Source of the DNA: Candidatus Omnitrophota bacterium
GTDB taxonomy: Bacteria > Omnitrophota > Gorgyraeia > Zapsychrales > JBDRMG01
Assembly: GCA_043812495.1 (NCBI GenBank)
Contig: JBDRMG010000008.1
Location: 1,516-65,515, forward strand
Direction of reading: 5' to 3'
Length of the DNA stretch: 64,000 bases
How positions within the stretch are numbered: position 1 is the first letter of the stretch; each line of letters starts with the position of its first letter. Below the pieces are notes generated by a model that saw only the letters and a list, made by a program, of their open reading frames with translations, did not search any database and was not told the DNA's origin. The position numbers were made by a program, and so were the translations under genes. This document shows, one piece after another, positions 16,206 through 40,692 of the stretch.

Positions 16206-16215
16206 AGGAAATTCT

Positions 16216-21800: not shown

Positions 21801-23663
21801 ATGAAATCTGCCAAAAATCAGAAAAATTTCTGGGTCATCTTTCTTGCTTTAACCATCCTTTTTTTCCTTATCAAATACCAGGGACCGCAGGTTATTCGCA
21901 CCCTCTATCAAAACAATTCCTTCCAGACCCTTGACAGACTCACCAGAGCCAAGGGCCCCCACTCCCTGGATTATTATTTGGGTCGGACGGATGATGTTTT
22001 GTTTGGTCCATTAAGTTCTCTGGTTTCCGGCCTAGTTCTTTTGGGTTTCTCTCTCGCGTATCTGCAAAAATCTCAAGCTTTAAAATTTGCACTCGCCATT
22101 TTCGCTTATCTTCTAATTACCCGCCCAGAAATTCTTTTTTACCCTCCTTATGGGGATGCTGTCACGGGAATATTTTTTGACGTGATATGGATTGCCCGGC
22201 ATTCGTTTGATTACATCGGGTTATTCCATCAAAATAATTTCGGCGTCGGCGCGCCCCAGGCGTATCCTATTTCTCTTTTTCCGAGTTTTCTGGCCTTCCT
22301 GATGCAAGTAACCCCAACAACAAAAACTTTTCTTATAACAACACACTTAGTTATTTTTTTGATGGCCGCAGGCGCCGTATCCTCTTTTCGAGAAGTCTTG
22401 CGAAAAACATTTGATGAAACGATTGCCATTTTTGGTTCGATGATTCTTTTGGCGCTTCCGCTTTTTCAATGCATGGCCGAATTGATCAACCAGGAAGTGG
22501 CCTGCCTTTTTTTTGCTATTCTTGCCGTTTACTTTCTGTTTCTAAGAAGTTTGGGAAGAGCCATGCTGTTTTCGGCCCTATCGTTGCTTGTTAAAGCGCC
22601 CGGGGGAATAACTTGTTTTGCGATGTCCTGGGCGGGCATCCTTATGTTTTTAACGGAAAAAGACAACAAGGGTCGTATGAAAACTTTGCTGTGGGCCATC
22701 GGAGCAGCTGTTTTTGTTATGACCATGTTTCTTATCAGGCGATGGCGGACCGGAGAACACATGATTGATACAACCAATGTGACGGGATTTCTCATTGGCT
22801 GGAAGAATATTTCAGGTTTAGTGACATTTTGGATTTTTCTCGCCGTGGTTGTCTTTTTTATCATTCAGAGCATTATGGAGTGGCGAAAACGACCTGACAA
22901 TCAAAGGAGACTTGCCTCTTTTATCCATGAGCATCAGCCTGTTTTGATTGTCGGTTCGGTTGTCATTCTTTGGTTTGGTCTTTATGTTAATTTCCTGGTG
23001 ATGATTGACCGATACAAGTTGTTATTGGCGCCGTTTTATATAGTTTTCTTGATGTATGTTTTTACGCCTGTCATTAAAGATCAGAAAAGAATTCAGAAGA
23101 TTTTAATGGCTGTCATTGTTATTTTTCTTCTTTCTTCCCACGGTCATATCGGACAAAGGACCTTCGCTAACGGCTATTACAGCGGTTTTGAACGCAGCCT
23201 GGAATACCGTAACAATCTCAAAATGGCCATGCGGGTTACAAAGGAGATCGAGAACAATTATTATCCGGGGTATACGATTGCCGCGCCGTTTGTCATTGCG
23301 CATATGCTTAATTTTTCCGAGATTGGTTATGTAGATCAACCGCTCAATGTCGTTATGTACGGGATGAACAGCCATTTTAAAGGCATTGATATCTTTAAAG
23401 GTTTAAGCCTCATGAATATTGAAAAGACCGTTTGGATTGGATTCCCGGATTATTTTCTCAATGAACAAATCCCATATCCGATCGGTCCCGGCGACCAGAT
23501 AATCAAAGAAATAGAAGTCGGGGATCGGAAAGTGGCACTTTTTAAAGGCGGTTATGCCATCGAAAGGATGAGATTGCTGGTTATGCTCAAGCAGAGAGGC
23601 GTGTTAGATAAATTTATCCAGAGAGCGAAAGAACATCAAGCAAAATCAAAAGGAACCCGATGA
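21801..23663 (+). CDS. Large polytopic membrane protein (about 13 TM), possibly a GT-C-type glycosyltransferase
   Basis: Hydrophobicity pattern only. The genomic context is sugar-nucleotide genes. The function call is weak. Confidence 0.45.
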   Translation: MKSAKNQKNFWVIFLALTILFFLIKYQGPQVIRTLYQNNSFQTLDRLTRAKGPHSLDYYLGRTDDVLFGPLSSLVSGLVLLGFSLAYLQKSQALKFALAIFAYLLITRPEILFYPPYGDAVTGIFFDVIWIARHSFDYIGLFHQNNFGVGAPQAYPISLFPSFLAFLMQVTPTTKTFLITTHLVIFLMAAGAVSSFREVLRKTFDETIAIFGSMILLALPLFQCMAELINQEVACLFFAILAVYFLFLRSLGRAMLFSALSLLVKAPGGITCFAMSWAGILMFLTEKDNKGRMKTLLWAIGAAVFVMTMFLIRRWRTGEHMIDTTNVTGFLIGWKNISGLVTFWIFLAVVVFFIIQSIMEWRKRPDNQRRLASFIHEHQPVLIVGSVVILWFGLYVNFLVMIDRYKLLLAPFYIVFLMYVFTPVIKDQKRIQKILMAVIVIFLLSSHGHIGQRTFANGYYSGFERSLEYRNNLKMAMRVTKEIENNYYPGYTIAAPFVIAHMLNFSEIGYVDQPLNVVMYGMNSHFKGIDIFKGLSLMNIEKTVWIGFPDYFLNEQIPYPIGPGDQIIKEIEVGDRKVALFKGGYAIERMRLLVMLKQRGVLDKFIQRAKEHQAKSKGTR

Positions 23664-24670
23664 ATAAAACCGAGAAGAAAATATGCGTGACGGGTGGGGC
23701 AGGTTTTATCGGCAGCCATTTGGTCGAACGATTGATCTTATCGAATCATCATGTCATTGTGGTCGATAACTTTTCAACAGGTCGTTATGAGAATTTACCA
23801 TTTCGGAAAAACTGTAAAAACCTATCAATCATCAATGCGGATGTGGCAGATCCTGACAAAATGATTAATTGTTTTAAGGGTGTAGAAATTGTTTTTCATT
23901 GCGCGGCGTTGGCCGATATTGTTCCTTCGATCGTTCATCCCGATCGTTATTACCGGTCCAACGTGACCGGGACTTTTTGCGTGGCTGAGGCCGCGAGAAA
24001 GGCGCAAGTCAAGAAATTTATTTATACAGCCAGCTCCTCTTGCTATGGGATCGCAACAAATTTACCGACGAAAGAGAGTGATCCGATCGATCCTCAATAT
24101 CCTTATGCGCTAACCAAATATTTGGGCGAGCAAATTACATTTCATTGGGGAAAGGTCTATGGACTGCCGGTTGTTTCTTTACGGCTTTTTAATGTGTACG
24201 GTCCGCGTTCGCGAACCTCCGGAACCTATGGCGCTGTGTCCGGAGTTTTTCTGGCTCAGAAACTGGCCGGAAAGCCCTATACGGTCGTGGGGGACGGAAC
24301 ACAAACGAGAGACTTTATCTATGTCTCTGATGTCGTCGAAGCATTTCTTGCGGCCGCTTTTTCTGATATCAAAAATGAAATTTTCAATGTTGGCTGCGGA
24401 AATCCTCAAAGCGTTAATACGCTTGTATCGCTTTTGGGCGGAGAGAAAGTCCATATTCCCAAACGGCCGGGTGAGCCTGATTGCACGTGGGCCGATATCG
24501 CTAAAATTAAAAATAAGCTGGATTGGCAACCCAAAATTTCTTTTGAGGAAGGTATCGGGAATATTCTTCAGCATATTCAGGATTGGCGCAGTGCTCCGGT
24601 TTGGACGCCGGAGAAAATCGAAGAAGCCACCAAAGATTGGTTTACATACCTAGCAAAGGAAAAGCCATGA
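23660..24670 (+). CDS. NAD-dependent sugar-nucleotide epimerase/dehydratase (SDR family)
   Basis: GGAGFIGSHL Rossmann motif. YxxxK (YALTKYLGE). ATGA overlap with the upstream stop. Confidence 0.8.
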   Translation: MNKTEKKICVTGGAGFIGSHLVERLILSNHHVIVVDNFSTGRYENLPFRKNCKNLSIINADVADPDKMINCFKGVEIVFHCAALADIVPSIVHPDRYYRSNVTGTFCVAEAARKAQVKKFIYTASSSCYGIATNLPTKESDPIDPQYPYALTKYLGEQITFHWGKVYGLPVVSLRLFNVYGPRSRTSGTYGAVSGVFLAQKLAGKPYTVVGDGTQTRDFIYVSDVVEAFLAAAFSDIKNEIFNVGCGNPQSVNTLVSLLGGEKVHIPKRPGEPDCTWADIAKIKNKLDWQPKISFEEGIGNILQHIQDWRSAPVWTPEKIEEATKDWFTYLAKEKP

Positions 24671-26202
24671 ATAAAGATGTCTTAAAAAAGATTAAAAAAA
24701 TTCAGCAGCTGGCGGATATCGTCGCCCATTGCAAACGGCAAGGCAAGAAAGTTGTTCACTGTCATGGGGTGTTTGATCTCTTGCACCCTGGGCACTTAAA
24801 ACATTTTGAGTCCGCCAAGAAAAAAGGCGATGTATTGGTTGTCACCGTGACGCCGGATGAGCATGTCAACCGGGGGCCGGGACGGCCGATTTTTAATCAG
24901 GATCTGCGCGCCGAAAGCATTGCCCATCTGGCCTGTGTCGATTTTGTGGCGATTAATGAATGGCCTACAGCGGTTGAGGCCATCAAAACCATACGGCCCG
25001 ATTTTTATATTAAGGGCAGCGAATACGCGATCAAAGAAGATGACGTCACGGGGAAAATCTTTGATGAAGAGGAAGCCGTCAAAAAAGTCGGCGGGCAATT
25101 GGATTTTACCGATGATATCACGTTCAGCTCCACATCGATTATCAATGATCTTTTGGCTCCCTATCCGGAGGAAGCCCAGGATTTCCTCAAAAGTCTAAAA
25201 AAACGCTACAGTACCGAAGATATTATACGTTATTTGCAGGGTGTTCGATCAGTTAAAGTGCTTGTGATCGGTGATGTGATTATCGACGAATATCATTATT
25301 GCGTCGGCATGGCCAAGACACAGAAAGACAATATCATCGCGACTCGTTTTATTTCAGCCGAACAGTTTGCCGGCGGCGTCTTGGCGGCGGCCAATCATAT
25401 TGCCGGTTTTTGTAAAGACGTAACGCTTTTAAGCTGTATCGGGACAGGGGAGAATTACCAACCCTTTATTACCGATCGCCTGAAACCCAACATACAGACA
25501 AAGTTTTATCAACGCAAAGATGCCCCGACGGTCGTTAAACGCCGTTTTGTAGATAAGAATTTCTTAACAAAACTTTTTGAAATATGTTATTTGGACGATC
25601 TGACGATGCTGCCCACTTCTGTAGAAAATAAAATCTGCGATTATCTTCGCAAGAATCTCAAGAAATTCGACATGGTTCTTGTGGCGGATTTTGGCCACGG
25701 AATGATCACGCCTAAGATCATTAAAATTTTATGCGAAAAGGCAAAGTTTTTAGCTCTCAATGTCCAGACCAATAGCTCCAATATCGGGTTTAATCTTGTG
25801 CCGAAATTTCCTCGTGCCGATTATATCTGTATTGATGAACCTGAATTGCGCTTTGCCTGCCATGACCGGTTTTCCAAACCGGAAGATTTGGTTCTGAAGA
25901 TCACAAAAAAAATGAAATGCGATCACATGATCATTACACGGGGACACCGGGGCGCGCTGACGTATTCCAAGAAAAAAGGATTTTCGCAGATCCCTGTTTT
26001 TTCAAAAGAAGTCATCGACCGCATTGGGGCCGGAGACGCTTTTTTCTCGATTACTTCGCCATGTATTTTTAAGGGTGTGCCTACAGAGGTTGTGGGCGTT
26101 ATCGGAAATGCGGTAGGAGCCATGAAAGTTCTTATCGTGGGTAATCGGGCCAGCGTTGAACCGGCCCCGTTACTCAAATACATAGGGACATTATTGAAAT
26201 GA
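24666..26202 (+). CDS. Bifunctional heptose 1-phosphate adenylyltransferase (N-terminal) / PfkB-family heptose 7-phosphate kinase (C-terminal), HldE-like with swapped domain order
   Basis: N-terminal HxGH nucleotidyltransferase motif (VVHCHGVFDLLHPGHLKHF). C-terminal ribokinase-like domain with DRIGAGDAF. Start ATG 24666 overlaps the epimerase stop. Confidence 0.7.
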
Positions 26203-26768
26203 ATTATTTTAAAGAGCTCATCGATTTATGTCAGCATATTACGATCAATGATCAGAAGGGGAGGCCCTTGTTGATCGAAAAGGCCTTTGACAGAACAGTC
26301 CAGATGATTATGGACCACAAAAATAAAGGCAAAGTTTTTTTGATAGGAAACGGCGGCAGCGCGGCCATTGCCAGCCACACCATGACGGATTTTATCCGTA
26401 ATGCGAAGATTCCGGCCATGGCTTTTAATGACGCCGCTCTTTTGACATGCATGTCCAATGATTATGGATACGAAAAGGTTTACGAAAAGCCCATTGAAGT
26501 TGTCGTCAAAAGAGGAGACGTGCTGATTGCGATCAGTAGCTCGGGAAAATCGAAAAATATTATCCGGGCCGTCAGAGCCGCACAGAAGAATAAGGCGCGC
26601 GTTATTACTCTTTCGGGGTTCAACCGGAACAACTATTTGAGCAAGCTCGGGGAAATCAACTTCTACGTTCCTTCCAGCTCTTACGGGTTCGTCGAGTCCA
26701 TACACTTTCTCATCTGCCACTGCATTGTTGATACTTTGATAGCGAAAAAGAAAAGAAAAAATGGATAA
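26199..26768 (+). CDS. gmhA: Phosphoheptose isomerase (SIS domain)
   Basis: LIGNGGSAAIASHTMTDF and AISSSGKSKNI SIS motifs. Confidence 0.8.
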   Translation: MNYFKELIDLCQHITINDQKGRPLLIEKAFDRTVQMIMDHKNKGKVFLIGNGGSAAIASHTMTDFIRNAKIPAMAFNDAALLTCMSNDYGYEKVYEKPIEVVVKRGDVLIAISSSGKSKNIIRAVRAAQKNKARVITLSGFNRNNYLSKLGEINFYVPSSSYGFVESIHFLICHCIVDTLIAKKKRKNG

Positions 26769-27828
26769 GTTCAGAATCGACAGCCATAAGCTCACGTATC
26801 ATGTCCAGCGCGTCCATGATTGGTTGAATGGAAAAAACATTTATCCGGTGTATATAGAAATCAGCCCTACGGGCGCGTGCAACCACCGCTGTATTTTCTG
26901 CGGTTTAGACTTTATGGAATACAAAGCCCGGTCGCTTGATACGGCCCTATTGAAAGAACGTTTAAAAGAATTGGGCGAACTTGGCGTCAAAAGCATCATG
27001 TACGCCGGCGAAGGTGAGCCTTTCTTGCATCGAGACATCGTCGAGATCATTCAGCATACGAAAAATTCCGGAATAGATGTCGCGGTCACAACCAACGGCG
27101 TTTTATTTTCAAAAGAAAAAGCCGAAAACTCACTTGGGTATATGGAATGGATTAAGATCGGCATCGATGCCGGAACTAAAGAAACCTACGCGAAAATTCA
27201 TCGATGCCGAGAACAAGACTTCGATCGCCTCATTGAAAATATGAAAGAGGCTGTCCGGATTAAACGCAAAAGCGGTTACTCTTGCGCGATCGGCGCTCAG
27301 GCTTTGCTTTTACCCGACAATCAAAAGGAGATGGTGGGTCTCGCCAAGCTTATCAAAGATATTGGATTAGACTATCTTGTCGTCAAACCCTATTCTCAGC
27401 ATCCGCAGAGCAAAACCAAACAATATAGTGAGATTAAATATGACGACTATGGCGGGCTCGAAGAACAATTATCTCAGCTTAAGTCGGACAAGTTTCAAGT
27501 GATCGTGCGTATCCATACCATGAGAAAATGGGATGATAAGAAAAAAGAATATGAATGCTGTCTCGCACTTCCGTTTTGGTCGTATATTGATGCGGGGGGA
27601 AATGTCTGGGGCTGCAGCGTATATTTAGGGGATGAACGCTTCTTTTACGGCAATATCAATGAGCAGTCTTTTAAAGAAATATGGGAATCACAAAAACGTG
27701 TTGATTCACTACGCTTTGTTCAAGAGAAGCTCAACGCCTCAACGTGCCGAGTGAATTGCCGCATGGATGAAGTGAATCGTTATTTGTGGGAGCTAAAAAA
27801 CCCTCCCGACCATGTGAATTTTATATAA
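26761..27828 (+). CDS. Radical SAM enzyme with C-terminal Cys-rich auxiliary-cluster (SPASM/twitch-like) domain; paralog of 34473-35771
   Basis: CNHRCIFC (Cx3Cx2C). C-terminal Cys pairs (ECCLALP...GCSVY...STCRVNCRMD). Shared terminal motif KNPPDHVNFI. Confidence 0.75.
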   Translation: MDKFRIDSHKLTYHVQRVHDWLNGKNIYPVYIEISPTGACNHRCIFCGLDFMEYKARSLDTALLKERLKELGELGVKSIMYAGEGEPFLHRDIVEIIQHTKNSGIDVAVTTNGVLFSKEKAENSLGYMEWIKIGIDAGTKETYAKIHRCREQDFDRLIENMKEAVRIKRKSGYSCAIGAQALLLPDNQKEMVGLAKLIKDIGLDYLVVKPYSQHPQSKTKQYSEIKYDDYGGLEEQLSQLKSDKFQVIVRIHTMRKWDDKKKEYECCLALPFWSYIDAGGNVWGCSVYLGDERFFYGNINEQSFKEIWESQKRVDSLRFVQEKLNASTCRVNCRMDEVNRYLWELKNPPDHVNFI

Positions 27829-28024: not shown

Positions 28025-28543
28025 TTGGAGGAAAAAATGAAGAGAGCTGTCATTATTACAGCCACAAATTTTCAGGATGAGGAATTTACCTATCCGTATT
28101 ATCGATTACTGGAAGAGGGTTTTGCGGTTGATGTGGCCACGCCGGATAAAGCGCCGGTTTGCGGCAAATACGGCGTCCCGGCCCGACCCAACAAAGATAC
28201 AAAAGAATTGAAGGTCTCCGATTACGATCTTGTCATTCTTCCCGGCGGATTTGAAGCTCCGGATCGCCTGCGTATTCGTCCGGAAGTTTTGGCCTTCGTC
28301 AAAGAGATGTTTGAGACCAAAAAGATTGTGGCGGCCATCTGCCACGGACCCTGGATTTGTATTTCCGCGGGAATCCTCAAAGGGAAGAAGGCAACGGGGT
28401 ATATGTCCATCGCCGATGATATCAAAAATGCCGGCGCGACTTATATGGAAGAGGATGTTGTGATTGACGGAAATCTGATTACATCTCCGCACTATCGCAA
28501 TAACGGCGATTTTATGAAAGCCGTTCTCAAAACCATCAAATAA
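28025..28543 (+). CDS. DJ-1/PfpI-family protein (class I glutamine amidotransferase-like fold)
   Basis: Nucleophile elbow AAICHGPW. Confidence 0.8.
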   Translation: MEEKMKRAVIITATNFQDEEFTYPYYRLLEEGFAVDVATPDKAPVCGKYGVPARPNKDTKELKVSDYDLVILPGGFEAPDRLRIRPEVLAFVKEMFETKKIVAAICHGPWICISAGILKGKKATGYMSIADDIKNAGATYMEEDVVIDGNLITSPHYRNNGDFMKAVLKTIK

Positions 28544-28546
28544 ATG

Positions 28547-28700: not shown

Positions 28701-28701
28701 A

Positions 28702-33047: not shown

Positions 33048-34457
33048 ATGAAAATATTGTTCACGAACTCACCTTTACATTTCAGCCACGGACATACGTT
33101 TACTCAACCGGATTGGCAAACCCTCGTCTTGCCGCTTTTAGCGGCGATTGCCGGTGATGAACATGAAATCAAACTTTTTGATAACAACGCATTATTTTTT
33201 GAATCCAACAGAATTCTCTGTGAAATAAAAGAGATGTGTCCTGATGTTGTCGGATTTAGTATCATTGCGGCCAGAGATGTATTCAATACCCTCCAAATCA
33301 TCCAAGAGGTTCGCAAAGAGTATCCAGAATTAAAACTCATTGCAGGCGGACAAGCCGCAACATTTTACGGTCGATTGTTGCTTGAGAGCGGAATTGATTT
33401 TGTAGTTCACGGTGAAGGAGAGATAACGCTCAAAGAACTCATTGGGGCCATTTCTGAGAATGCGCCTGATTATTCAGGGATCCAGGGGATTTCTTATTGT
33501 CGTGAAGGAAATGTTTATAAGACCGCGGATCGTTCCAAGATCAAAAATCTTGATGATTCTCCTTTTCCGGCTATCCATCTGATGCCGCTTCGAAAGTCAA
33601 AATGGTTTCCCGGACGCTTTACCGGTTCAATTGAGACATCACGTGGGTGTCCGTTTGATTGCAATTTTTGCGCCATTACGTCCTTTTGGGACAGAACGTT
33701 CCGCGAAAAATCAAATGAGCGCATTCTCGATGAGATGAAATTTCTTGTTGAAAGCGGACGGTCTCATTTTTATATGGCGGATGATAACTTCGGGATGAAC
33801 ATCAAAAAGCATATTGATCTCTTTGAAAGGATTTTGAAAGAGGGCCTCGATATCCGATTCTTTGCGCAGATGAGAACCGATACTATCGGCCTGCATCCCG
33901 ACATGGTTTCGATCGCGGCCCGGGCAGGGCTATATGGTGCGTTAATCGGTTTTGACACCTATGATCCGGAGACATTTCACCATGTGACAAAAGCAGGAAG
34001 CGTTGAATTAAATATACAGTGCGCAGAGGTGATGAGGAAAAACAAGATCATGATTTTTGGTTCGCATATTTACGGTCTTCCGACGCAGAAAAAACCGCTC
34101 GATTTTGCAAAGACATTTTGGATGGGGCGCAGAAACTCAGATTTGTTTCGCATGCCGCGATTTTCTTTGCTTCCCGGAACAAAAGCGTATGGTCAGATGA
34201 TCACTCAAGAGATGATTGACAGCAAAACCGGCAGCGGAGATTTTAGGTTATTTATTCGACCCGCAAAAGAACAAAAGAAATTTCAGCGCTGGTATGCGCT
34301 CTTTAATTTCCTGAATATATTCCTTCCGGATGAGATTCTCAAAGCCTTTTTTCATCCGAATCGCAATATCAGAAAAATAAAACAGTATGGATATATCAGC
34401 ATTGTGCGGCATAATTTTTATCGGATGTTAAGAACGCTGTGTTTATGCGATATTTAA
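33048..34457 (+). CDS. Cobalamin-binding radical SAM protein (class B, COG1032-like)
   Basis: N-terminal B12-binding Rossmann-like segment. SRGCPFDCNFCAI Cx3Cx2C motif. Confidence 0.75.
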   Translation: MKILFTNSPLHFSHGHTFTQPDWQTLVLPLLAAIAGDEHEIKLFDNNALFFESNRILCEIKEMCPDVVGFSIIAARDVFNTLQIIQEVRKEYPELKLIAGGQAATFYGRLLLESGIDFVVHGEGEITLKELIGAISENAPDYSGIQGISYCREGNVYKTADRSKIKNLDDSPFPAIHLMPLRKSKWFPGRFTGSIETSRGCPFDCNFCAITSFWDRTFREKSNERILDEMKFLVESGRSHFYMADDNFGMNIKKHIDLFERILKEGLDIRFFAQMRTDTIGLHPDMVSIAARAGLYGALIGFDTYDPETFHHVTKAGSVELNIQCAEVMRKNKIMIFGSHIYGLPTQKKPLDFAKTFWMGRRNSDLFRMPRFSLLPGTKAYGQMITQEMIDSKTGSGDFRLFIRPAKEQKKFQRWYALFNFLNIFLPDEILKAFFHPNRNIRKIKQYGYISIVRHNFYRMLRTLCLCDI

Positions 34458-34472: not shown

Positions 34473-35771
34473 ATGGCACAAAAGAAATCAAAAGCCCCTA
34501 CGCATAAAAAGGGAAAGATCGTCAAAATTCCTCAAAAGATGAAAACCCTCAAGCACGGCGGGCATGTTCTTCGTACAGGCAAACAAATTGTTGACCGCGC
34601 CAAGCTTAATCAAATCAAAGCTAAGTCGAAAACAAGCGCCAAGCAGCCCAACCAATATACGGGCCATACATTTCTCAATAAACCTTTACGATTCCGTTTG
34701 GACAGCCATAAGTTGTTGCATCATCTGGATCGGGTGCTCGCCTGGCAGCGTGGCGAACGGATTACTCCGATCCATATCGACATGGGATTGACAAAATTCT
34801 GTAACGTCGGTTGCATATACTGTATCGGCGTTACGCAGATTATGACTAAAGGAGAGCTGATCGCACGTGAGGCTTTGCTTCGATTAATCGATGATTGCGC
34901 GCGCCTTGGGGTGCGCAGCCTTGCCTTTATCGGCGACGGTGAGCCAACGCTGAACCCCGCTATGTATGATGCCGTTGTGCGCGCAAAGAGTTTAGGGATC
35001 GATGTCGGCATGGCCACCAATGGCATTCTCATCAAAATGGACCGTGCGCACGATCTTTTACGCGATTTGACGTTCTTGCGGATTAATTTAAGCGCGGCTG
35101 AACCCAAGAGTTTTGAAAGAATTCATCAAGCGCCGGGCCGGCAGCTCGACCTTCTGATGGACAAGCTAAAGGCCATGGTGAAAATACGCAAAGAAAACGG
35201 ATACACCTGCACTCTTGGGATTCAGATGGTCTTAATACCGGAAAATTTTGATCAGATCATTAAGCTCACCGAGCTCGGCCGGGACATCGGTGTTGATTAT
35301 TTTCAGATTAAACAATGCTCCGATACGGAATATAAAGAAATCGGCGTTGATTACGGCCAATATCGTAAGGCCGAAAAAGATCTTAAAAGAGCCGAACAGC
35401 TAAGCACAGACAGTTATTTTGTTCAGGTCAAATGGAACAAAATTAACATTGCAGGTGAGACAAATGTGTATAAAGGCGGAATACGCAAATACGATATCTG
35501 CTATGGCACGCCGTTTCTCGGTCAAATCAGCGGGAACGGAAAAGTTTATCCATGTGGCCCATTTTTCTCAAAGGAACGTTTCTTAATGGGCGATATTCAC
35601 AAACAGTCTTATTATGATATCGTCAAAAGCGATCGCTATTGGCAAGTGCACCAGGATATCATCGACAACGTTGACGTTCACTGCGACTGCACCGTGGGAT
35701 GCCGGCAGGACTATATCAATAAATTTTTGTGGGATATTAAAAATCCTCCACAACATGTCAATTTCATTTAG
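34473..35771 (+). CDS. Radical SAM enzyme with C-terminal auxiliary-cluster domain and Lys-rich N-terminal extension; paralog of 26761-27828
   Basis: CNVGCIYC. C-terminal CDCTVGC. Shared motifs DSHKL.HH..RV..W and KNPPQHVNFI. Confidence 0.75.
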   Translation: MAQKKSKAPTHKKGKIVKIPQKMKTLKHGGHVLRTGKQIVDRAKLNQIKAKSKTSAKQPNQYTGHTFLNKPLRFRLDSHKLLHHLDRVLAWQRGERITPIHIDMGLTKFCNVGCIYCIGVTQIMTKGELIAREALLRLIDDCARLGVRSLAFIGDGEPTLNPAMYDAVVRAKSLGIDVGMATNGILIKMDRAHDLLRDLTFLRINLSAAEPKSFERIHQAPGRQLDLLMDKLKAMVKIRKENGYTCTLGIQMVLIPENFDQIIKLTELGRDIGVDYFQIKQCSDTEYKEIGVDYGQYRKAEKDLKRAEQLSTDSYFVQVKWNKINIAGETNVYKGGIRKYDICYGTPFLGQISGNGKVYPCGPFFSKERFLMGDIHKQSYYDIVKSDRYWQVHQDIIDNVDVHCDCTVGCRQDYINKFLWDIKNPPQHVNFI

Positions 35772-35780
35772 CGCACAATA

Positions 35781-37361
35781 ATGGTTTACCGGAACCTAGA
35801 TAATATCCAAACCACAGTTCGCACACCAAAAGTTCTTCTTTTAAATCCACCTGACGATGAGCATTCCTATAAGTTGTTTCGTGCATCGTTTCCGCTAGGA
35901 TTATGTTACCTGGGTACCTATCTTAAAAAAGAGAAATATCAGGTAAAGATTGTTGATGCGAAGGTAGGAAACATTAAGAGAGTCCCATTAGAAAAAGAAG
36001 GAATGGTTAGGGTTGGACTTTCCTTAAATGAGATAGAAAATATTATTAATGATTTTTCACCAGATGTTCTTGGCCTTTCCTGTATTTTTCACACAAATTT
36101 TAATCCTACTTTAGATATCGCGAAATTGGCAAAAACCAAATGCCATATTCCTTATGTTGTAGCAGGAGGGAGCTATGCCTCGGTGGTTCCAAAGAAGATC
36201 ATGGAGTCTCCCTATATTGATTATTTAGTTCTTGGAGAAGGGGAGGTAACATTTGAGAAATTATTACAAAAGTTGTTTAATCCCACAGGCAATCAAGAGT
36301 TGGGCGATTTAGATGGAGTCGTATTGAGGGATAACGACGGCAAAGTTTGTGTAAAAAATAGGACTGAATACATCTCTTCAGATGAGTTTTTTACCCCCAA
36401 TAGAGATTTTCTCCCAGTTGAAAAGTATATAAAGTTTCGAAGCCCTCACAATATCTTATCCCGAGGGCATCGGGCGTTAGAAGTTATCACTTCACGAGGG
36501 TGTAATGCGCGTTGCACATTTTGTTCAGCCCCGTTGTTATGGGGTAAATTCAGAATGAGAAGCGTAAAGGGTATTATCGATGAATTGAAATTTCTCAAAG
36601 AGAAGTACCATATTGATGAGGTTCAGTTCATTGATGATAATCTGACCTTCGATAAAAAAAGAGCGGAAGATCTCTTCCAGCGTATGATAGATGACAAATT
36701 GAACCTTAAGTGGTGCGCTCCCAATGGCATTGCGATACATACTCTCGATGAAAATTTGATACGCTTAATGAAAGAAAGCGGCTGTTATTTGGTTACATTG
36801 GCCATTGAAAGTGGGAGTCAACGCGTACTGACTGAATTAATAAAGAAGCCTTTGTTGTTGGAGAAGGTACACGCAACAGTTAAGCTGTTAAAGAAATACA
36901 AGCTCGCCGCAGAAGCTTTCTTTGTTATCGGAATGCCAGGGGAGACATTTGAAGAGATTAAAAAAACATTTGATCTTGCATTTAAGCTGGGTATATTCAG
37001 GGCACACTTCAGCTATATTACTCCTATTCCGTCGACACCAGTTTACAAGACATATCTAGAACTGAAAAGGCATAATGCATCTGATAGCAGCACTACTGAT
37101 CTTATTGATGAAAGCTGTTTCGATTTTAGATTTCCTGCGATATCAACGAAAGAATGGACTAACAAGCAGCTTAAAAGATATACTTCTATTCTGTCATTTA
37201 AATTTTATTTGAAATTCTTAATTTTAAAACCGCATATTTTTATTAAAGAAGTCAGCCTTATTATTAGCCGTCCAAAGCTCCTTTTGGGATTAATGGTTAT
37301 TTTTAAGGATGTTATTTTAGGAAATCTATTATCTAAAGAAAAGGTCACTGTCAATGAATAA
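35781..37361 (+). CDS. Cobalamin-binding radical SAM protein (class B)
   Basis: B12-binding N-terminal domain. SRGCNARCTFCSA motif. Confidence 0.75.
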   Translation: MVYRNLDNIQTTVRTPKVLLLNPPDDEHSYKLFRASFPLGLCYLGTYLKKEKYQVKIVDAKVGNIKRVPLEKEGMVRVGLSLNEIENIINDFSPDVLGLSCIFHTNFNPTLDIAKLAKTKCHIPYVVAGGSYASVVPKKIMESPYIDYLVLGEGEVTFEKLLQKLFNPTGNQELGDLDGVVLRDNDGKVCVKNRTEYISSDEFFTPNRDFLPVEKYIKFRSPHNILSRGHRALEVITSRGCNARCTFCSAPLLWGKFRMRSVKGIIDELKFLKEKYHIDEVQFIDDNLTFDKKRAEDLFQRMIDDKLNLKWCAPNGIAIHTLDENLIRLMKESGCYLVTLAIESGSQRVLTELIKKPLLLEKVHATVKLLKKYKLAAEAFFVIGMPGETFEEIKKTFDLAFKLGIFRAHFSYITPIPSTPVYKTYLELKRHNASDSSTTDLIDESCFDFRFPAISTKEWTNKQLKRYTSILSFKFYLKFLILKPHIFIKEVSLIISRPKLLLGLMVIFKDVILGNLLSKEKVTVNE

Positions 37362-38148
37362 TACAAACATAAAAGTTTCCGTCATTACGCCAGCTTTGAA
37401 TGAAGAAAAGAATATTAGATTTACGATTGATCGCATTCTGGATGTTTTTGAAAGATGCAATATTTCTGGTGAGATCATTGTCGTCAATGATGGCAGTACG
37501 GATAGGACAGAGGAGCTGGTGGAGGATTTTATCCAAAGCGACTCCCGGGTCAAGGTACTCAAACACGAAACACCGCAAGGCATGGGGGCCTCCTTCTGGG
37601 ATGGCTTCGACCATGCTAAGGGTGAAATCATTGTCGTGATTCCCGGCGATAACGAGAATGATCCGTGGGAAATCCTGCGGTATTACTCTTTGTTAGAGCA
37701 TGTCGATATCGTTATTCCCTTTATTTTTAATCGTGAAGTGAGGCCTTTTTTGCGCAACATCCTTTCTTTGCTTTTTCGCTTGATTATCAATTCAACTTTT
37801 GTTGTCAATTTTAATTACACGAATGGGACAATACTTTACCGGAAGGATATTATTCAGGATGTAAAGTATCGAAGCAGCAGCTTTTTCTTTCAGACAGACA
37901 TTTTGATACGACTTGTTAAAAAAGGATATTTATTTGCCGAAGTTCCCTTTCGTTTAGACATCAGAGAGCAAGGCCGCTCAAAGGCTGTTTCTTTTCCTTC
38001 TCTGTTGCAGGTGATGAAGGGGTATTTTCGCTTAATCCGCGATCTTTATTTTGCCAAAGAAAGTAAGATTAAGGTACGTTTCTCACAAAAATCTGCAACA
38101 GCCAAAAGGCGACAAAATAATTTGATCCAACAGAATCGTAATCAATGA
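37354..38148 (+). CDS. Family 2 glycosyltransferase
   Basis: VSVITPALNEEKNI...VVNDGSTDRTEEL...D-x-D-like GDNEND region. Confidence 0.8.
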   Translation: MNNTNIKVSVITPALNEEKNIRFTIDRILDVFERCNISGEIIVVNDGSTDRTEELVEDFIQSDSRVKVLKHETPQGMGASFWDGFDHAKGEIIVVIPGDNENDPWEILRYYSLLEHVDIVIPFIFNREVRPFLRNILSLLFRLIINSTFVVNFNYTNGTILYRKDIIQDVKYRSSSFFFQTDILIRLVKKGYLFAEVPFRLDIREQGRSKAVSFPSLLQVMKGYFRLIRDLYFAKESKIKVRFSQKSATAKRRQNNLIQQNRNQ

Positions 38149-39641
38149 TATTAATTAATCCCGGTTATAATCGAGAACAAAAACTTGGCGCTTTTTCCCG
38201 ATATGTCCCTTTAAGTGTTCCTATGGGCATTGGATATCTTGCGGCCTATCTGAAAAAGCACGATTGCAAGGTTCAAATAATCGATGAAGAAGTGACGCCT
38301 TTGTCGGATGCGCTTCTTTGTGAATATACAAAAAACCTCGAACGTCCTTATATTTTCGGTATATCCGCGTTAACGGCAGGAATCGAGCGTGCCTACCGTG
38401 TTGCCGATATCCTCAAAGAAAAGTATCCCGAGTGCAAGGTTCTATTTGGTAATGTGCATCCCACTGTTTTGCCAGAAGAAGTTTTAAGCCATCAAAGTGT
38501 TGATCTTGTTGTTCGAGGGGAAGCCGAAGAGATCTTGACCGAACTATACTATCGAATGAAAAACCATCAGGATTATCAAGATATTAAAGGAATCTCATTT
38601 CGCAAAAATGGCCAAATCGTTCACAATGAACCTTCTCCCTTGCCAGATCTTAAAAAAATTCCTCCATTTCCTTATCATCTATTTGAACAGTTCGCCGGTC
38701 AATATGATTTTGGATTTGTAGCGAGCTCTCGCGGCTGTCCGTTTAACTGTATTTTCTGCTCCCAGCGCAGTATTTCGGGCCGACAGTATCGATTTTTTCC
38801 TGCGGACGTTGTTGTCCATTCCATGGAGGAAATTATCTTGAAATACAAACGTTCCTATATTGGTTTTGTCGATGATTTATTCATTATTAATAAAGCCAGG
38901 GTTTTTGAACTTTGCGAAATGATTCGAAAGAAAGGTCTACACAAAAAAGGAATGTTTGACTGTCAGGCACGAGGGGATTTTGTGGATGAAGAGATTCTGA
39001 CCACTCTTAAAGCGTCGGGCTTTCGAACGCTGCATTTTGGCATTGAGACGGCCTCCGAACGCCTGATGAAACTGATCAACAAAAAAGAAACCGTGGCACA
39101 GGTGGTCGGAGGAATTAAACTGGCCAAGAAAATTGGCCTCAGGGTGTCCGGGACTTTTATTTTGGGTCTTCCTACAGAAACTAGAGAAGAGAGACGGGCC
39201 GCTTATCGATTGGCTAAAGAATTGTCCTTGGATTATGTACGTTTTAATAACGCCACACCTTATCCCGGGACGGAATTGTACAATATTGCCGTTAAGGAAA
39301 ATCGTCTCAATCCTGGCAAGAACTGGGAAAATCTTAATGCTTGCGGAACGCTTGTGGAATCACCTTTTAAGGAAAACCCTTTGGCGTACGTGCCACTCGG
39401 CACATCTGAAAGAGTTTTGCGATGCGATATCTTAAAGTATAATCTGTTTTATTCGTTTCGCTTACAGAGCATTATCAAAATCTTAAGAGAAAGAATTGCC
39501 GCCGGCGCCTGGCTGACGCTTCCGGAAAAATGGTATTTTAAGATTGAAGAATGGATCTATTTAATCAAGTTTGCTTTTCGAATTCTATTCTCATTTGGAA
39601 AGGTTTTTCTGTATAGTATTCTGACTATGTTTGAAAGGTAA
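38145..39641 (+). CDS. Cobalamin-binding radical SAM protein (class B)
   Basis: B12-binding N-terminal domain. SSRGCPFNCIFCSQ motif. Confidence 0.75.
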   Translation: MILINPGYNREQKLGAFSRYVPLSVPMGIGYLAAYLKKHDCKVQIIDEEVTPLSDALLCEYTKNLERPYIFGISALTAGIERAYRVADILKEKYPECKVLFGNVHPTVLPEEVLSHQSVDLVVRGEAEEILTELYYRMKNHQDYQDIKGISFRKNGQIVHNEPSPLPDLKKIPPFPYHLFEQFAGQYDFGFVASSRGCPFNCIFCSQRSISGRQYRFFPADVVVHSMEEIILKYKRSYIGFVDDLFIINKARVFELCEMIRKKGLHKKGMFDCQARGDFVDEEILTTLKASGFRTLHFGIETASERLMKLINKKETVAQVVGGIKLAKKIGLRVSGTFILGLPTETREERRAAYRLAKELSLDYVRFNNATPYPGTELYNIAVKENRLNPGKNWENLNACGTLVESPFKENPLAYVPLGTSERVLRCDILKYNLFYSFRLQSIIKILRERIAAGAWLTLPEKWYFKIEEWIYLIKFAFRILFSFGKVFLYSILTMFER

Positions 39642-39645
39642 GAAG

Positions 39646-40170
39646 ATGAGTGTCTTTTTATATGGACTACTGTTGTTTGGTTTGAGTGTTTGTGTGCATT
39701 TTTGTATCTGGAAAATTCACGCGCCAAAAAATCATGCGCGGGCACTCGTTTGGATATTTGTGGGTGTATATTTCATTTCGATACTTCTATTTCTTTGCTG
39801 TCGCGGCACGATGACTCTTTTTGGGGTCGTTTTACCTCAAACAATCCTTAGATATACACAATTTTCTTTTTTGTTTTCTTCTTTGGCTGTTTTTTATGTC
39901 GCCAATTATCCCTCGATCGAAGTAGATAGTCCTTCGATGGTGATGATTCTCGCTATCGCTCAAAAAGGACGTGAGGGACTTGATAAGAAAACTTTTGAAC
40001 AGGACATGAATGATGACATTCTTGTTGTTCCGCGCGTGTATGATCTTCACAAAGGCGGCATGACCTATTTAGAGGACAATCGGTATAAACTCACAACAAG
40101 CGGAAAGTTGATTGCCCGTTTGTTTGTATTTCAGCGGATGCTTTTAGGCAAGAAAGAAAAGGGTGGTTAA
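39646..40170 (+). CDS. Small membrane protein (4 TM plus a C-terminal soluble domain), hypothetical
   Basis: The listed ORF begins with TTG at 39631. The first ATG is at 39646. Architecture is similar to the next gene. Confidence 0.5.
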   Translation: MSVFLYGLLLFGLSVCVHFCIWKIHAPKNHARALVWIFVGVYFISILLFLCCRGTMTLFGVVLPQTILRYTQFSFLFSSLAVFYVANYPSIEVDSPSMVMILAIAQKGREGLDKKTFEQDMNDDILVVPRVYDLHKGGMTYLEDNRYKLTTSGKLIARLFVFQRMLLGKKEKGG

Positions 40171-40176
40171 CGGCTC

Positions 40177-40692
40177 ATGGGAATTGTTCGATATATATAC
40201 TCACCTTTCTTCGGCTTGGCTGTGAGCATTATTGTTCAGGTGCTGATCCTCCGCTTCAACAGCCGTTTTAGCCTCTTGAAATCCATGGTGATTGGGTTTT
40301 TTTGTGGGTTTGCCGGTCTTATGATAATCGACATCGGATATAATGTATCCACCGCTTCAAGAGGAGAGCTCTTATTAAACCTGAATCTCTTTATTTATTG
40401 TCTGTGGGCCAATGTTTATTTTCATTTTGTGAATATGGGGGAAACGGCGCGGCGCATAAGAATTTTAAGAGAGCTTTATGAAGCTTCAGGCGGCCTGACT
40501 TTGGATGAGCTTCTTGAACGCTATAATGCCAAGGGGATCATTGAAAAAAGAATCGAACGATTAGTGCACAATGATCAGATTATTTTTAAGGAAGGGAAAT
40601 ATTATATTAAGAATCGATTATTATGGCTGGTCGCAAAGATGATTATTTCAATGAAGTTCATCTTTCTTGGTAAAAGAAGCGAATTTGATTAG
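40177..40692 (+). CDS. Small membrane protein (4 TM plus a C-terminal soluble domain), hypothetical
   Basis: ORF only. Architecture resembles the preceding gene. Confidence 0.5.
   Translation: MGIVRYIYSPFFGLAVSIIVQVLILRFNSRFSLLKSMVIGFFCGFAGLMIIDIGYNVSTASRGELLLNLNLFIYCLWANVYFHFVNMGETARRIRILRELYEASGGLTLDELLERYNAKGIIEKRIERLVHNDQIIFKEGKYYIKNRLLWLVAKMIISMKFIFLGKRSEFD

What the first reader, a model, noticed from the sequence alone, without database searches (positions are those of the whole stretch)
21801..40692. About 19 kb tailoring cluster rich in radical SAM and B12-radical-SAM genes, built around an ADP-heptose branch; candidate novel modified-sugar or glycan pathway
One co-directional block holds the following. 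Seen directly: a 13-TM membrane protein; an SDR epimerase; an HldE-like adenylyltransferase/kinase; GmhA; two paralogous radical SAM enzymes with C-terminal auxiliary Cys clusters (shared DSHKL..H..RV..W start and KNPP(D/Q)HVNFI end); three class-B cobalamin-binding radical SAM proteins (Cx3Cx2C motifs at 33.6, 36.5 and 38.7 kb); a cupin fused to a TPP-dependent ALS-fold enzyme; a SAF/UxaA-like dehydratase; a GT2; DJ-1/PfpI; and two paralogous small membrane proteins. From established knowledge, GmhA and HldE make ADP-D-glycero-beta-D-manno-heptose. Class-B radical SAM enzymes typically C-methylate or rearrange unactivated carbons (GenK, Fom3). YerE-type TPP enzymes add C2 branches to keto-sugars. 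Radical SAM enzymes with auxiliary clusters oxidise or deaminate sugars (BtrN, DesII). By inference, the block makes a heavily C-modified heptose or higher sugar for a glycoconjugate. The gene combination does not match any pathway I know, and the genes overlap tightly (ATGA overlaps), which implies one operon. No RiPP precursor peptide is evident, so a RiPP cluster is less likely.
Basis: partly seen in the sequence, partly recalled or inferred. Interest (0 to 1): 0.8.

Follow-up and report, generated by a model that had tools for sequence, protein, structure and literature searches.

The report
Radical-SAM-rich branched heptose surface-glycan operon
A 19 kb operon in an uncultured Omnitrophota bacterium appears to make a heptose-type sugar, add a carbon branch, remodel it with five radical enzymes and attach it outside the cell membrane; its core is shared by many phyla but matches no studied pathway.

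Summary
Window 21801-40692 holds 15 co-directional, mostly overlapping genes with the predicted domains. I make three corrections:
- The HldE-like protein has its domains in swapped order.
- No GmhB phosphatase is present.
- The two small membrane proteins are only distant paralogues.

New findings:
- The "13-TM protein" has a GT-C glycosyltransferase fold.
- The GT2 belongs to the polyprenyl-phosphate class (DPMS/GtrB/ArnC) but has no membrane anchor.
- The ThDP domain is closest to the ketone-accepting YerE-like enzymes JanthE and PpYerE.
- PfpI, cupin and ThDP form a tightly conserved triad in at least eight phyla (58-71% identity).
- The triad often sits beside the swapped HldE-like gene, a GmhA-like gene and the 355-aa SPASM radical SAM gene.

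One Omnitrophota relative keeps 13 of the 15 genes in order. The B12-radical-SAM set varies between relatives. No radical SAM gene reaches any curated family cut-off or resembles a solved enzyme closely.

Best reading: an NDP-heptose is given a ThDP-installed branch, tailored by radical SAM enzymes, loaded on a polyprenyl phosphate and transferred by the GT-C enzyme. The chemistry is inferred, not shown. I rate it a new variant of a known kind, of moderate to high interest.

The parts
21801..23663 (+). 620-aa GT-C-fold glycosyltransferase, expected to use a polyprenyl-phosphate-linked sugar donor. The family is restricted to Omnitrophota.
   Evidence: No Pfam or NCBIfam hit. AF2 model: pLDDT 89, pTM 0.91. 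The top 32 Foldseek PDB hits are all GT-C enzymes, including ALG9, PglB, ArnT, STT3, AglB, DPY19, Emb, PMT and PimE. Only 37 homologues were found; every one that carries an organism name is Omnitrophota. Some sit directly upstream of a 308-312 aa GT2. The stop codon overlaps the next gene's start.
23660..24670 (+). Extended SDR of the NDP-sugar 4-epimerase type.
   Evidence: Pfam Epimerase 2e-61. Best NCBIfam hit is GalE at 187 bits (cut-off 262); HldD scores 127 (cut-off 275). It has SSS...Y149xxxK and lacks the TDE dehydratase motif.
24583..26202 (+). HldE-like bifunctional nucleotidyltransferase (N-terminal) and PfkB sugar kinase (C-terminal), in swapped order. The probable start is ATG 24667, giving 511 aa.
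   Evidence: NCBIfam scores: HldE 160 bits (cut-off 521), rfaE_dom_II 103 (cut-off 181.5), rfaE_dom_I 103 (cut-off 345). The family is 501-511 aa in full-length members, and clustered in 24 related loci.
26199..26768 (+). GmhA-like SIS-domain sugar-phosphate isomerase.
   Evidence: The 13 best PDB hits are all phosphoheptose isomerases, up to 88 bits (the last two are DiaA). Both catalytic-region His residues are kept, and an Asp aligns where I recall GmhA's catalytic Glu65 (my reading of the alignment). NCBIfam GmhA models score 107-108 bits (cut-offs 209-276).
26761..27828 (+). Radical SAM/SPASM enzyme of 355 aa (rSAM355), part of the widely conserved core.
   Evidence: Pfam Radical_SAM + SPASM. 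CNHRCIFC motif at residue 40. Best PDB hit is BlsE, at only 36.5 bits. Present at 35% identity or more in 25 of 46 cupin-ThDP loci.
28025..28543 (+). PfpI/YhbO-subfamily DJ-1 protein. The probable start is ATG 28037.
   Evidence: TIGR01382 scores 157.5 bits, above its cut-off of 139. It lies beside the ThDP gene in 41 of 46 loci.
28702..31380 (+). Fusion of a PMI-like metal cupin (residues about 65-190), a subdomain of about 100 aa, and a YerE/JanthE-like ThDP carboligase (residues about 290-890).
   Evidence: HxH...H is invariant in the cupin; HEQ and GDG...NN are invariant in the ThDP part. More than 120 homologues share 61-72% identity.
31377..32945 (+). UxaA/GarD-family (GD_AH) acid-sugar dehydratase. 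Its start overlaps the ThDP gene's stop (ATGA), so the two are probably translationally coupled.
   Evidence: Pfam GD_AH_C 1.5e-83. NCBIfam galactarate dehydratase scores 261 bits (cut-off 731). The ATGA overlap is shown. It is adjacent to the ThDP gene in many relatives.
33048..34457 (+). Class-B (B12-binding) radical SAM enzyme, 469 aa.
   Evidence: Pfam. Best PDB hit is TokK at 70 bits. Orthologues at 61-69% identity occur only in L012 and L030. It is absent from the closest relative, L088.
34473..35771 (+). Radical SAM/SPASM enzyme of 432 aa (rSAM432), paralogue of rSAM355.
   Evidence: Orthologues at 64-74% identity occur in L088, L010, L011, L006, L009, L012, L030 and L035.
35781..37361 (+). 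Class-B radical SAM enzyme, 526 aa.
   Evidence: Pfam. Best NCBIfam hit is the Sden_1168 P-methyltransferase family at 277 bits (cut-off 575). Best PDB hit is AprD4 at 59 bits. Absent from L088.
37354..38148 (+). GT2 of the polyprenyl-phosphate glycosyltransferase class, 264 aa, with no transmembrane segment.
   Evidence: Best PDB hits are DPMS 5mlz, GtrB 5ekp and ArnC 9bhc. No hydrophobic segment was found.
38145..39641 (+). Class-B radical SAM enzyme, 498 aa.
   Evidence: Pfam. NCBIfam hits ApyD, HpnJ and BchE score about 167-173 bits, all far below their cut-offs. The best PDB hit scores 95 bits. L088 has a 72%-identical orthologue.
39631..40170 (+). Small membrane protein with N-terminal TM helices and a soluble C-terminal domain. 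The probable start is ATG 39646 (174 aa).
   Evidence: No Pfam hit. TM prediction. It co-occurs with the GT2 in L088, L010, L011, L081 and L013.
40177..40692 (+). Small membrane protein, a distant paralogue of the previous gene.
   Evidence: hhalign probability 93%, E 3e-7 over 133 columns. BLASTP finds nothing.

Best explanation
The block is one operon with four modules.

1. Sugar supply. A GmhA-like isomerase and a swapped-order kinase/nucleotidyltransferase turn sedoheptulose-7-P into an NDP-heptose. The phosphatase step is encoded elsewhere in this genome; relatives carry a HAD gene at this position. An SDR of the 4-epimerase type adjusts the stereochemistry.

2. Carbon branching. The UxaA/GarD-type dehydratase makes a 2-keto-3-deoxy acid. 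The YerE/JanthE-like ThDP domain decarboxylates that acid and adds the fragment to a keto form of the sugar. The keto form is produced by the fused PMI-like cupin, by the SPASM radical SAM enzyme rSAM355, or by both. The always-adjacent PfpI protein has an unknown helper role.

3. Radical tailoring. The second SPASM enzyme and three B12-dependent radical SAM enzymes methylate or rearrange unactivated carbons.

4. Delivery. The anchor-less GT2 loads the sugar onto a polyprenyl phosphate. The two small membrane proteins anchor the GT2 or flip the lipid-linked sugar. The GT-C enzyme then transfers the sugar to an acceptor outside the cytoplasmic membrane.

What is shown: gene content, protein folds, family relationships and co-occurrence across genomes. 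What is inferred: every chemical step.
For: Operon layout: overlapping starts and stops, with unrelated flanking genes.

Sugar module:
- The best family and PDB hits are all heptose enzymes.
- In relatives the same genes sit beside a HAD phosphatase and, in six loci, a GT9 heptosyltransferase.

Branching module:
- JanthE and PpYerE are the top solved relatives.
- YerE-like enzymes add 2-oxoacid-derived units to ketones. ErwE prefers 4-hydroxy-2-oxoacids (PMC12247030).
- The GD_AH gene overlaps the ThDP gene's stop codon.
- In L003 an enolase-superfamily (MR_MLE) gene lies next to PfpI and no GD_AH gene is present; the same family occupies that position in L015. Such enzymes include acid-sugar dehydratases (my knowledge).
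- The PfpI-cupin-ThDP triad is present in 41 of 46 loci. The cupin is a separate gene in several Pelagibacteraceae loci, so the fusion links two proteins that also work as neighbours.

Delivery module:
- The membrane protein has a GT-C fold.
- The GT2's best hits are DPMS, GtrB and ArnC, but it has no TM segment.
- The pair of small membrane proteins co-occurs with the GT2 in five other loci.
- Homologues of the GT-C protein sit next to 308-312 aa GT2 genes in other Omnitrophota.

Conservation: L088 keeps 13 of 15 genes in order at 38-82% identity.
Against: - The heptose genes score far below the curated cut-offs, and the HldE-like domain order is reversed.
- No GmhB phosphatase lies in the block.
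- The SDR looks like an epimerase, not a 4,6-dehydratase. The source of the ketone acceptor is therefore unproven.
- The cupin matches only generic metal cupins, and its model is of moderate quality (pLDDT 68).
- The GD_AH gene is present in only about 9 of 46 cupin-ThDP loci, so its donor-supply role cannot be universal.
- The role of PfpI is unexplained.
- The B12-radical-SAM genes vary between relatives, so they are accessory.
- The acceptor and the product are unknown.
- Many related contigs are truncated, and ORF calls in GC-rich loci are noisy.
Confidence: 0.55

Rival explanations
1. The pathway is the same kind, but the sugar is not a heptose. The SIS isomerase, PfkB kinase and nucleotidyltransferase would activate a different ketose phosphate, such as a hexose, an octose or another keto-sugar phosphate. 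The ThDP enzyme might then act on a sugar phosphate rather than a sugar nucleotide.
For: All three genes fall far below the curated heptose cut-offs. The domain order is swapped. The nucleotidyltransferase domain's best PDB hit is ethanolamine-phosphate cytidylyltransferase. An Asp aligns where I recall the catalytic Glu of GmhA. The cupin's only family signal is the type II phosphomannose isomerase cupin; I recall that this type acts on sugar phosphates.
Against: The best hits of all three genes are still heptose enzymes. Relatives add a HAD phosphatase, which completes the four-activity heptose set, and GT9 heptosyltransferases.
Confidence: 0.2
2. The block makes a diffusible small-molecule natural product, for example a nucleoside- or aminoglycoside-like antibiotic built on a high-carbon sugar, rather than a cell-surface glycoconjugate.
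For: The radical SAM genes resemble AprD4, TokK, CysS and BlsE, all from antibiotic pathways. The core spreads across phyla at 58-71% identity, which suggests horizontal transfer. Heptose-derived antibiotics such as septacidin exist (PMC9978623, listed).
Against: A GT-C transferase and a polyprenyl-phosphate-type GT2 lie inside the operon. No aglycone, NRPS, PKS or resistance genes are present. Relatives place the core beside NeuB/DegT/PglD and GT9 surface-glycan genes.
Confidence: 0.12
3. The block is two or more independent units that merely lie side by side. One would be an ordinary heptose/GT-C envelope module. The other would be a separate radical-SAM cluster with a different, non-sugar substrate such as a lipid or a cofactor.
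For: The B12-radical-SAM complement differs between relatives, and many relatives carry a quite different tailoring set: a SAM methyltransferase, a short-chain SDR, 630-690 aa B12-radical-SAM genes and a HemN-like gene. The NCBIfam hits include hopanoid (HpnJ, HpnR), BchE and 'lipid biosynthesis B12-rSAM' families.
Against: Every one of those hits falls far below its cut-off. No lipid, hopanoid or tetrapyrrole genes are present. The genes overlap across the module boundaries. rSAM432, the GT2 and the small membrane pair co-occur with the heptose and ThDP genes in Omnitrophota, Scalindua and Nitrospinae loci.
Confidence: 0.1
4. The block is a RiPP cluster. The SPASM and B12-radical-SAM enzymes would mature a ribosomal peptide, which is then glycosylated.
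For: SPASM and class-B radical SAM enzymes are common peptide maturases. The NCBIfam hits include ApyD, StsB, WgkB and PapB.
Against: No plausible precursor ORF lies in any gap. There is no leader peptidase and no RRE domain, and no exporter gene lies inside the block. All RiPP-family scores are far below their cut-offs. Sugar-nucleotide genes are the consistent neighbours.
Confidence: 0.03

Closest known systems
YerE-type branched-chain sugar pathways (yersiniose; ErwE; MMAR_2332 for caryophyllose), and the orphan enzyme JanthE
   Same: It has an ALS-fold ThDP enzyme whose best solved relatives are JanthE and PpYerE. It lies among sugar-nucleotide genes in a likely envelope-glycan setting. 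A 2-oxoacid donor is plausible.
   Different: Here the enzyme is fused to a PMI-like cupin and always paired with a PfpI protein. The acceptor is probably a heptose, not a 3,6-dideoxyhexose. No 4,6-dehydratase is present. Five radical SAM enzymes accompany it.
ADP-heptose pathway of Gram-negative LPS core (GmhA, HldE, GmhB, HldD)
   Same: It has a SIS isomerase, a PfkB kinase, a nucleotidyltransferase and an SDR epimerase. The best hits of the first three are heptose enzymes.
   Different: All scores are below the equivalog cut-offs. The domain order is reversed. GmhB is not in the block. The SDR resembles GalE more than HldD.
Arn (ArnC/ArnE/ArnF/ArnT), Gtr (GtrA/B/C) and eukaryotic DPM1-DPM2/3 systems
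   Same: A polyprenyl-phosphate GT2, a pair of small related membrane proteins and a GT-C transferase lie in one locus.
   Different: The GT2 lacks the transmembrane part found in ArnC, GtrB and archaeal DPMS. The small proteins carry a soluble domain that looks like a winged helix (by eye only) and match no Pfam family. The GT-C family is restricted to Omnitrophota.
Radical SAM sugar-tailoring enzymes (BtrN, DesII, BlsE, AprD4, GenK, Fom3)
   Same: SPASM/twitch and class-B architectures are encoded next to sugar-activation genes. BlsE and AprD4 are among the best solved hits.
   Different: The similarity is remote (36-95 bits). No orthology was found. Having five such enzymes in one surface-glycan operon has no characterised precedent that I could find.

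Membership tests
ADP-heptose pathway | A GmhA sedoheptulose-7-P isomerase that scores at equivalog level | tested here: not met
   It scores 107-108 bits against cut-offs of 209-276. Even so, the 13 best PDB hits are all GmhA and both His residues are conserved.
ADP-heptose pathway | A bifunctional HldE with the kinase N-terminal and the adenylyltransferase C-terminal | tested here: not met
   It scores 160 bits against a cut-off of 521, and the domain order is reversed.
ADP-heptose pathway | A GmhB phosphatase | tested here: not met
   None lies in the block. A HAD gene occupies this position in L001, L004, L010, L011, L018 and L019.
ADP-heptose pathway | Production of ADP-D-glycero-beta-D-manno-heptose | not testable with these tools
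   This needs enzyme assays or LC-MS.
YerE-like ThDP carboligases | A three-domain ALS fold with the catalytic Glu and the GDG...NN ThDP motif | tested here: met
   Pfam TPP_enzyme_N, M and C are all present. H338-E339-Q340, G743/G745 of the GDG motif and N770-N771 are invariant in the alignment.
YerE-like ThDP carboligases | Closer to characterised YerE-like enzymes than to acetolactate synthases | tested here: met
   JanthE scores 465 bits and PpYerE 296 bits. True acetolactate synthases score about 264 bits or less.
YerE-like ThDP carboligases | Addition of a 2-oxoacid-derived unit to a keto-sugar | not testable with these tools
   This needs biochemistry.
Class-B (cobalamin) radical SAM | An N-terminal B12-binding domain plus a CX3CX2C radical SAM core | tested here: met
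   All three proteins have both.
Class-B (cobalamin) radical SAM | Orthology to a characterised member such as GenK, Fom3, HpnJ/R, BchE or TokK | tested here: not met
   Every NCBIfam score is far below its cut-off. PDB hits score 95 bits or less.
SPASM radical SAM | A radical SAM core plus a C-terminal Cys-rich SPASM domain | tested here: met
   Pfam Radical_SAM and SPASM are present in both proteins.
GT-C glycosyltransferases | A multi-helix membrane fold shared with ArnT, PglB and ALG enzymes | tested here: met
   The AF2 model has pLDDT 89. The top 32 Foldseek hits are all GT-C enzymes; the first 21 have probability 1.00.
GT-C glycosyltransferases | A catalytic acidic residue in the first extracytoplasmic loop | tested here: inconclusive
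   The PPYGD motif (P115-D119) is invariant or nearly so. Its position in the membrane topology was not established.
Polyprenyl-phosphate GT2 (DPMS/GtrB/ArnC) | A GT-A catalytic domain most similar to this class | tested here: met
   The top seven PDB hits are DPMS, GtrB and ArnC.
Polyprenyl-phosphate GT2 (DPMS/GtrB/ArnC) | A C-terminal membrane anchor | tested here: not met
   The 264-aa protein has no hydrophobic segment.
RiPP cluster | A precursor peptide gene | tested here: not met
   No plausible short ORF lies in the gaps.
Phosphonate cluster | A PEP mutase | tested here: not met
   No EDKxxxxxNS motif occurs in any frame of the window. This is a crude motif test only.

The most novel reading that the evidence does not exclude
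The PfpI, cupin and ThDP proteins, together with the SPASM radical SAM enzyme, form a previously unrecognised carboligation system that several phyla share and that has probably moved between them by horizontal transfer. It would build a new class of long-branched, C-methylated higher-carbon sugars from heptose without using oxygen. Omnitrophota, anammox Planctomycetota, Nitrospinota and others would display these sugars on their surfaces through a lipid-carrier route. That route would use a new kind of split polyprenyl-phosphate glycosyltransferase: a soluble GT2 plus two small membrane subunits.
Probability: 0.3. Interest if true: 0.8.

Novelty: new variant of a known kind. Interest (0 to 1): 0.62.

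Why it matters
- The core module has relatives in 532 stretches from species-representative genomes, and its N-terminal domain alone matches 867 protein clusters. It spans Omnitrophota, Planctomycetota (including Scalindua), Nitrospinota, Lentisphaerota, several Proteobacteria, SAR11 relatives and DPANN archaea. No member has a known product.
- It offers a physiological context for JanthE-type ThDP enzymes, whose natural substrates are unknown (PMC12188165).
- It supplies several uncharacterised radical SAM and B12-radical-SAM families that probably act on sugars.
- It hints at unusual surface glycans in uncultured, mostly anaerobic lineages. Such glycans could affect host or prey recognition, phage adsorption and biomarker chemistry.

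Tried and rejected
- RiPP reading. No precursor ORF lies in the intergenic gaps. Rejected as the main reading.
- Phosphonate reading, prompted by the 277-bit hit to the Sden_1168 P-methyltransferase family. No PEP mutase motif occurs in the window and the score is below half the cut-off.
- Hopanoid, bacteriochlorophyll or ladderane-lipid reading. Only sub-threshold radical SAM hits support it, and no companion genes are present.
- Riboswitch or leader RNA upstream of the operon. No Rfam match at gathering or E-value thresholds.
- Consensus promoter and terminator scans were uninformative.
- An exact-sequence look-up of the window's ThDP protein found no contig. The source was identified through the homology search instead.
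- Profile search of the cupin N-domain against PDB sequences gave one weak generic cupin hit.
- Four literature searches for heptose, radical SAM, ThDP and Omnitrophota combinations found no description of this cluster.
- A 20-mer from the 158-nt insertion had no exact match in metagenome contigs.
- My greedy ORF caller picked antisense ORFs in some loci, for example opposite the PfpI gene. I therefore based the co-occurrence counts on tblastn.

Full report
**Observation**

Window 21801-40692 carries 15 + strand ORFs.
- an extended SDR epimerase;
- a CTP_transf_like + PfkB bifunctional protein;
- a SIS protein;
- two Radical_SAM + SPASM proteins;
- a DJ-1/PfpI protein;
- a protein with a weak cupin/PMI signal followed by TPP_enzyme_N/M/C;
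- a GD_AH (UxaA/GarD) dehydratase;
- three B12-binding + Radical_SAM proteins;
- a GT2;
- three proteins with no family hit.

Seven junctions are 4-11 nt start/stop overlaps; four are exact ATGA overlaps, and a fifth appears if the HldE-like gene starts at ATG 24667. Only three gaps exceed 100 nt. The two SPASM enzymes are clear paralogues (32% identity, E 8e-73). The flanks are unrelated: CorA, MarC, a hybrid-cluster protein with Rrf2, and RND efflux systems. The source is a Candidatus Omnitrophota MAG.

**Corrections to the observation**

- The HldE-like protein has its nucleotidyltransferase first and its kinase second, the reverse of HldE. Its likely start is ATG 24667, which gives 511 aa, within the 501-511 aa range of full-length family members.
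- No GmhB-type phosphatase lies in the block.
- The two small membrane proteins have no BLASTP similarity. They are related only at profile level (hhalign 93%, E 3e-7).

**The unannotated proteins**

The 620-aa membrane protein gave a confident AlphaFold model (pLDDT 89, pTM 0.91). Its top 32 Foldseek hits in the PDB are all GT-C glycosyltransferases, including ALG9, PglB, ArnT, STT3, AglB, DPY19, Emb, PMT and PimE. These enzymes use polyprenyl-phosphate-linked donors on the outer face of the membrane. The family has only 37 homologues; every one that carries an organism name is Omnitrophota. In two other genomes it sits directly upstream of a 308-312 aa GT2.

The window's GT2 is most similar to DPMS, GtrB and ArnC, the polyprenyl-phosphate glycosyltransferases. 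It is only 264 aa and has no hydrophobic segment.

The two small proteins have N-terminal TM helices and a soluble C-terminal domain. They accompany this GT2 in L088, L010 (Scalindua), L011, L081 and L013. By analogy with ArnE/F or DPM2/3, I infer that they anchor the GT2 or flip the lipid-linked sugar. This was not tested.

**The ThDP protein**

Residues 290-884 match the YerE-like enzyme JanthE best (8rph, 465 bits), then PpYerE (5ahk, 296 bits). True acetolactate synthases score lower. JanthE's natural substrate is unknown (PMC12188165). YerE-like enzymes couple 2-oxoacid-derived units to ketones, and ErwE prefers 4-hydroxy-2-oxoacids (PMC12247030).

The N-terminal 290 residues form a metal cupin with invariant HxH...H, followed by a subdomain of about 100 aa. 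Their only family signal is the cupin of type II phosphomannose isomerase. Fold hits are generic cupins.

This N-domain matches 867 representative protein clusters. Most are stand-alone proteins of about 250 aa; a minority are fusions of about 840-885 aa. In several Pelagibacteraceae loci the cupin is a separate gene near the ThDP gene. The fusion therefore records a functional link between two proteins.

**Conservation**

The fusion protein has more than 120 homologues at 61-72% identity. A scan of species-representative genomes found 532 relatives. Full-length fusions at 58-68% identity occur in:
- Omnitrophota;
- Planctomycetota (Scalindua, Phycisphaerae, Sedimentisphaerales, Pirellulales);
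- Nitrospina;
- Lentisphaerae;
- Desulfuromonadales;
- Nitrosomonadaceae;
- Gammaproteobacteria.

A more distant full-length fusion (44% identity) occurs in a Pacearchaeota MAG (L045).

Among 46 loci that carry the cupin part, neighbours at 35% identity or more were found as follows. These are lower bounds, because many contigs are truncated.

| Neighbour | Loci out of 46 |
|---|---|
| PfpI | 41 |
| rSAM355 | 25 |
| HldE-like | 18 |
| GmhA-like | 15 |
| SDR | 9 |
| GD_AH | 9 |
| rSAM432 | 9 |

Relatives often add a HAD phosphatase between rSAM355 and PfpI. Six loci add a GT9 heptosyltransferase, and one lies next to legionaminic/pseudaminic-type genes.

Two tailoring sets alternate between loci. 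One is the window's set: GD_AH, rSAM432, GT2 and the small membrane pair. The other comprises a SAM methyltransferase, a short-chain SDR, 630-690 aa B12-radical-SAM genes and a HemN-like enzyme.

The closest relative, L088, keeps 13 of 15 genes in the same order at 38-82% identity. It lacks the 469- and 526-aa B12 enzymes and adds a xylose-isomerase-like TIM-barrel gene. The block is therefore a unit within this lineage and a mosaic beyond it.

**Heptose assignment**

The GmhA-like protein's 13 best PDB hits are all phosphoheptose isomerases. It keeps both His residues, and an Asp aligns where I recall GmhA's catalytic Glu. The kinase domain's only sugar-specific PDB hit is the heptose-7-P kinase HldA. 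The best NCBIfam hits are HldE, rfaE_dom_I/II and GmhA, but all fall far below their cut-offs. The SDR has an epimerase-type S...YxxxK triad and no dehydratase TDE motif. I therefore call the sugar an NDP-heptose with moderate confidence. The nucleotide is undetermined.

**Mechanism (inferred)**

The proposed steps are these:
1. Sedoheptulose-7-P is isomerised, phosphorylated, dephosphorylated by an enzyme encoded elsewhere, and nucleotidylated.
2. The SDR epimerises the sugar.
3. A ketone is generated, by rSAM355 (following BtrN/DesII logic), by the cupin isomerase, or by both.
4. The GD_AH dehydratase makes a 2-keto-3-deoxy acid.
5. The ThDP domain decarboxylates that acid and adds the fragment to the ketone, giving a branched higher sugar.
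6. rSAM432 and the three B12 enzymes methylate or rearrange unactivated carbons.
7. The GT2 loads the product onto a polyprenyl phosphate, and the GT-C enzyme transfers it outside the membrane.

The GD_AH start overlaps the ThDP gene's stop codon. In L003 an enolase-superfamily (MR_MLE) gene lies next to PfpI and no GD_AH gene is present; the same family occupies that position in L015. Both points fit the donor-supply role proposed for GD_AH. PfpI passes its subfamily cut-off (157.5 against 139), but its role here is unknown.

**Comparison with known systems, and novelty**

No radical SAM gene reaches any curated equivalog cut-off. Their solved relatives are remote: BlsE 36.5 bits, TokK 70, AprD4 59 and 78, and an unnamed protein at 95. 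Literature searches found no description of this gene combination.

The general logic is known: nucleotide-sugar tailoring, YerE-type branching and delivery through a lipid carrier and a GT-C enzyme. The new elements are the PfpI-cupin-ThDP triad, the swapped HldE-like protein, five radical SAM enzymes in one operon, and an anchor-less GT2 with two small membrane partners. I rate it a new variant of a known kind, with interest 0.62.

**Caveats**

All the chemistry is inferred from homology and gene neighbourhoods. ORF calls in GC-rich loci were noisy. Co-occurrence was measured on only the 80 best loci.

Noticed in passing
window 28533-28705: A 158-nt GC-rich, highly structured insertion (RNA fold -87.5 kcal/mol, z -8.6) separates the PfpI stop codon from the cupin-ThDP start codon. 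It is flanked by a 15-nt direct repeat, CC(A/C)TCAAATAAATGA, which duplicates the stop/start junction. In relatives the two genes are nearly contiguous (1-6 nt apart). It looks like a MITE-like insertion with a target-site duplication. It has no Rfam match, and a 20-mer from it has no exact match in metagenome contigs.
   Followed up: partly
window 28798-28875: Two in-frame copies of a 24-nt unit lie inside the non-conserved N-terminal leader of the cupin-ThDP gene. Each copy contains the palindrome CCCG(C/G)CCTTTAGG(G/C)CGGGG. They encode QIPPFRAG and QIPAFRPG, and account for most of the roughly 34 extra residues compared with the 855-865 aa homologues.
   Followed up: partly
window 27863-27971: An imperfect inverted repeat with 51-nt arms (73% complementary) fills the gap between rSAM355 and PfpI. 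Many relatives carry a HAD (GmhB-like) phosphatase gene at exactly this position, so it may be a scar of gene loss.
   Followed up: partly
window 21616-21715: A long, essentially perfect inverted repeat (17-18 bp: CTAGTGCCGCCCCAACT / AGTTGGGGCGGCACTAG) with a loop of about 65 nt lies upstream of the operon. The fold z-score is -4.3. The loop holds a GGAGGAG ribosome-binding site and a 15-codon mini-ORF (MNNTQKKVGAALAVD) whose 3' half forms the right arm of the stem. It could be a leader-peptide attenuator or simply the CorA terminator. It has no Rfam match.
   Followed up: partly
L042, L043, L052, L063, L068 (marine Alphaproteobacteria and a DPANN archaeon): These loci carry a tandem arrangement: a cupin-ThDP fusion (28-39% identity to the window protein), a second cupin-less ThDP paralogue (43-50%), and then PfpI.
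   Followed up: no
L069 and L074 (other Omnitrophota): A different heptose cluster combines the same SDR, HldE-like and GmhA-like trio with what look like pyruvate-dehydrogenase-type E1 alpha/beta genes (judged by eye from the sequences, no family search), a cupin-less YerE-like ThDP gene, several further SDR-like and methyltransferase-like genes (also unchecked), and in L074 a B12-radical-SAM gene. This suggests a family of doubly branched heptose pathways in this phylum.
   Followed up: no
window 9354-9756: A tmRNA gene (Rfam 170 bits). The tag peptide predicted by ARAGORN is unusually long and atypical (EPSYQQCLWADKRSQAGWFRRLLSLAE) and may be mis-called.
   Followed up: no
window 10396-14960 and 43074-49146: Two separate RND efflux systems lie either side of the cluster region, one about 7 kb upstream and one about 2.4 kb downstream. 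Each has an AcrB-type pump and an outer-membrane factor; the downstream one also has an HlyD-type adaptor. A Rrf2 regulator, a ferredoxin-like gene and a hybrid-cluster protein lie at 15071-17853, which is consistent with an anaerobe.
   Followed up: no
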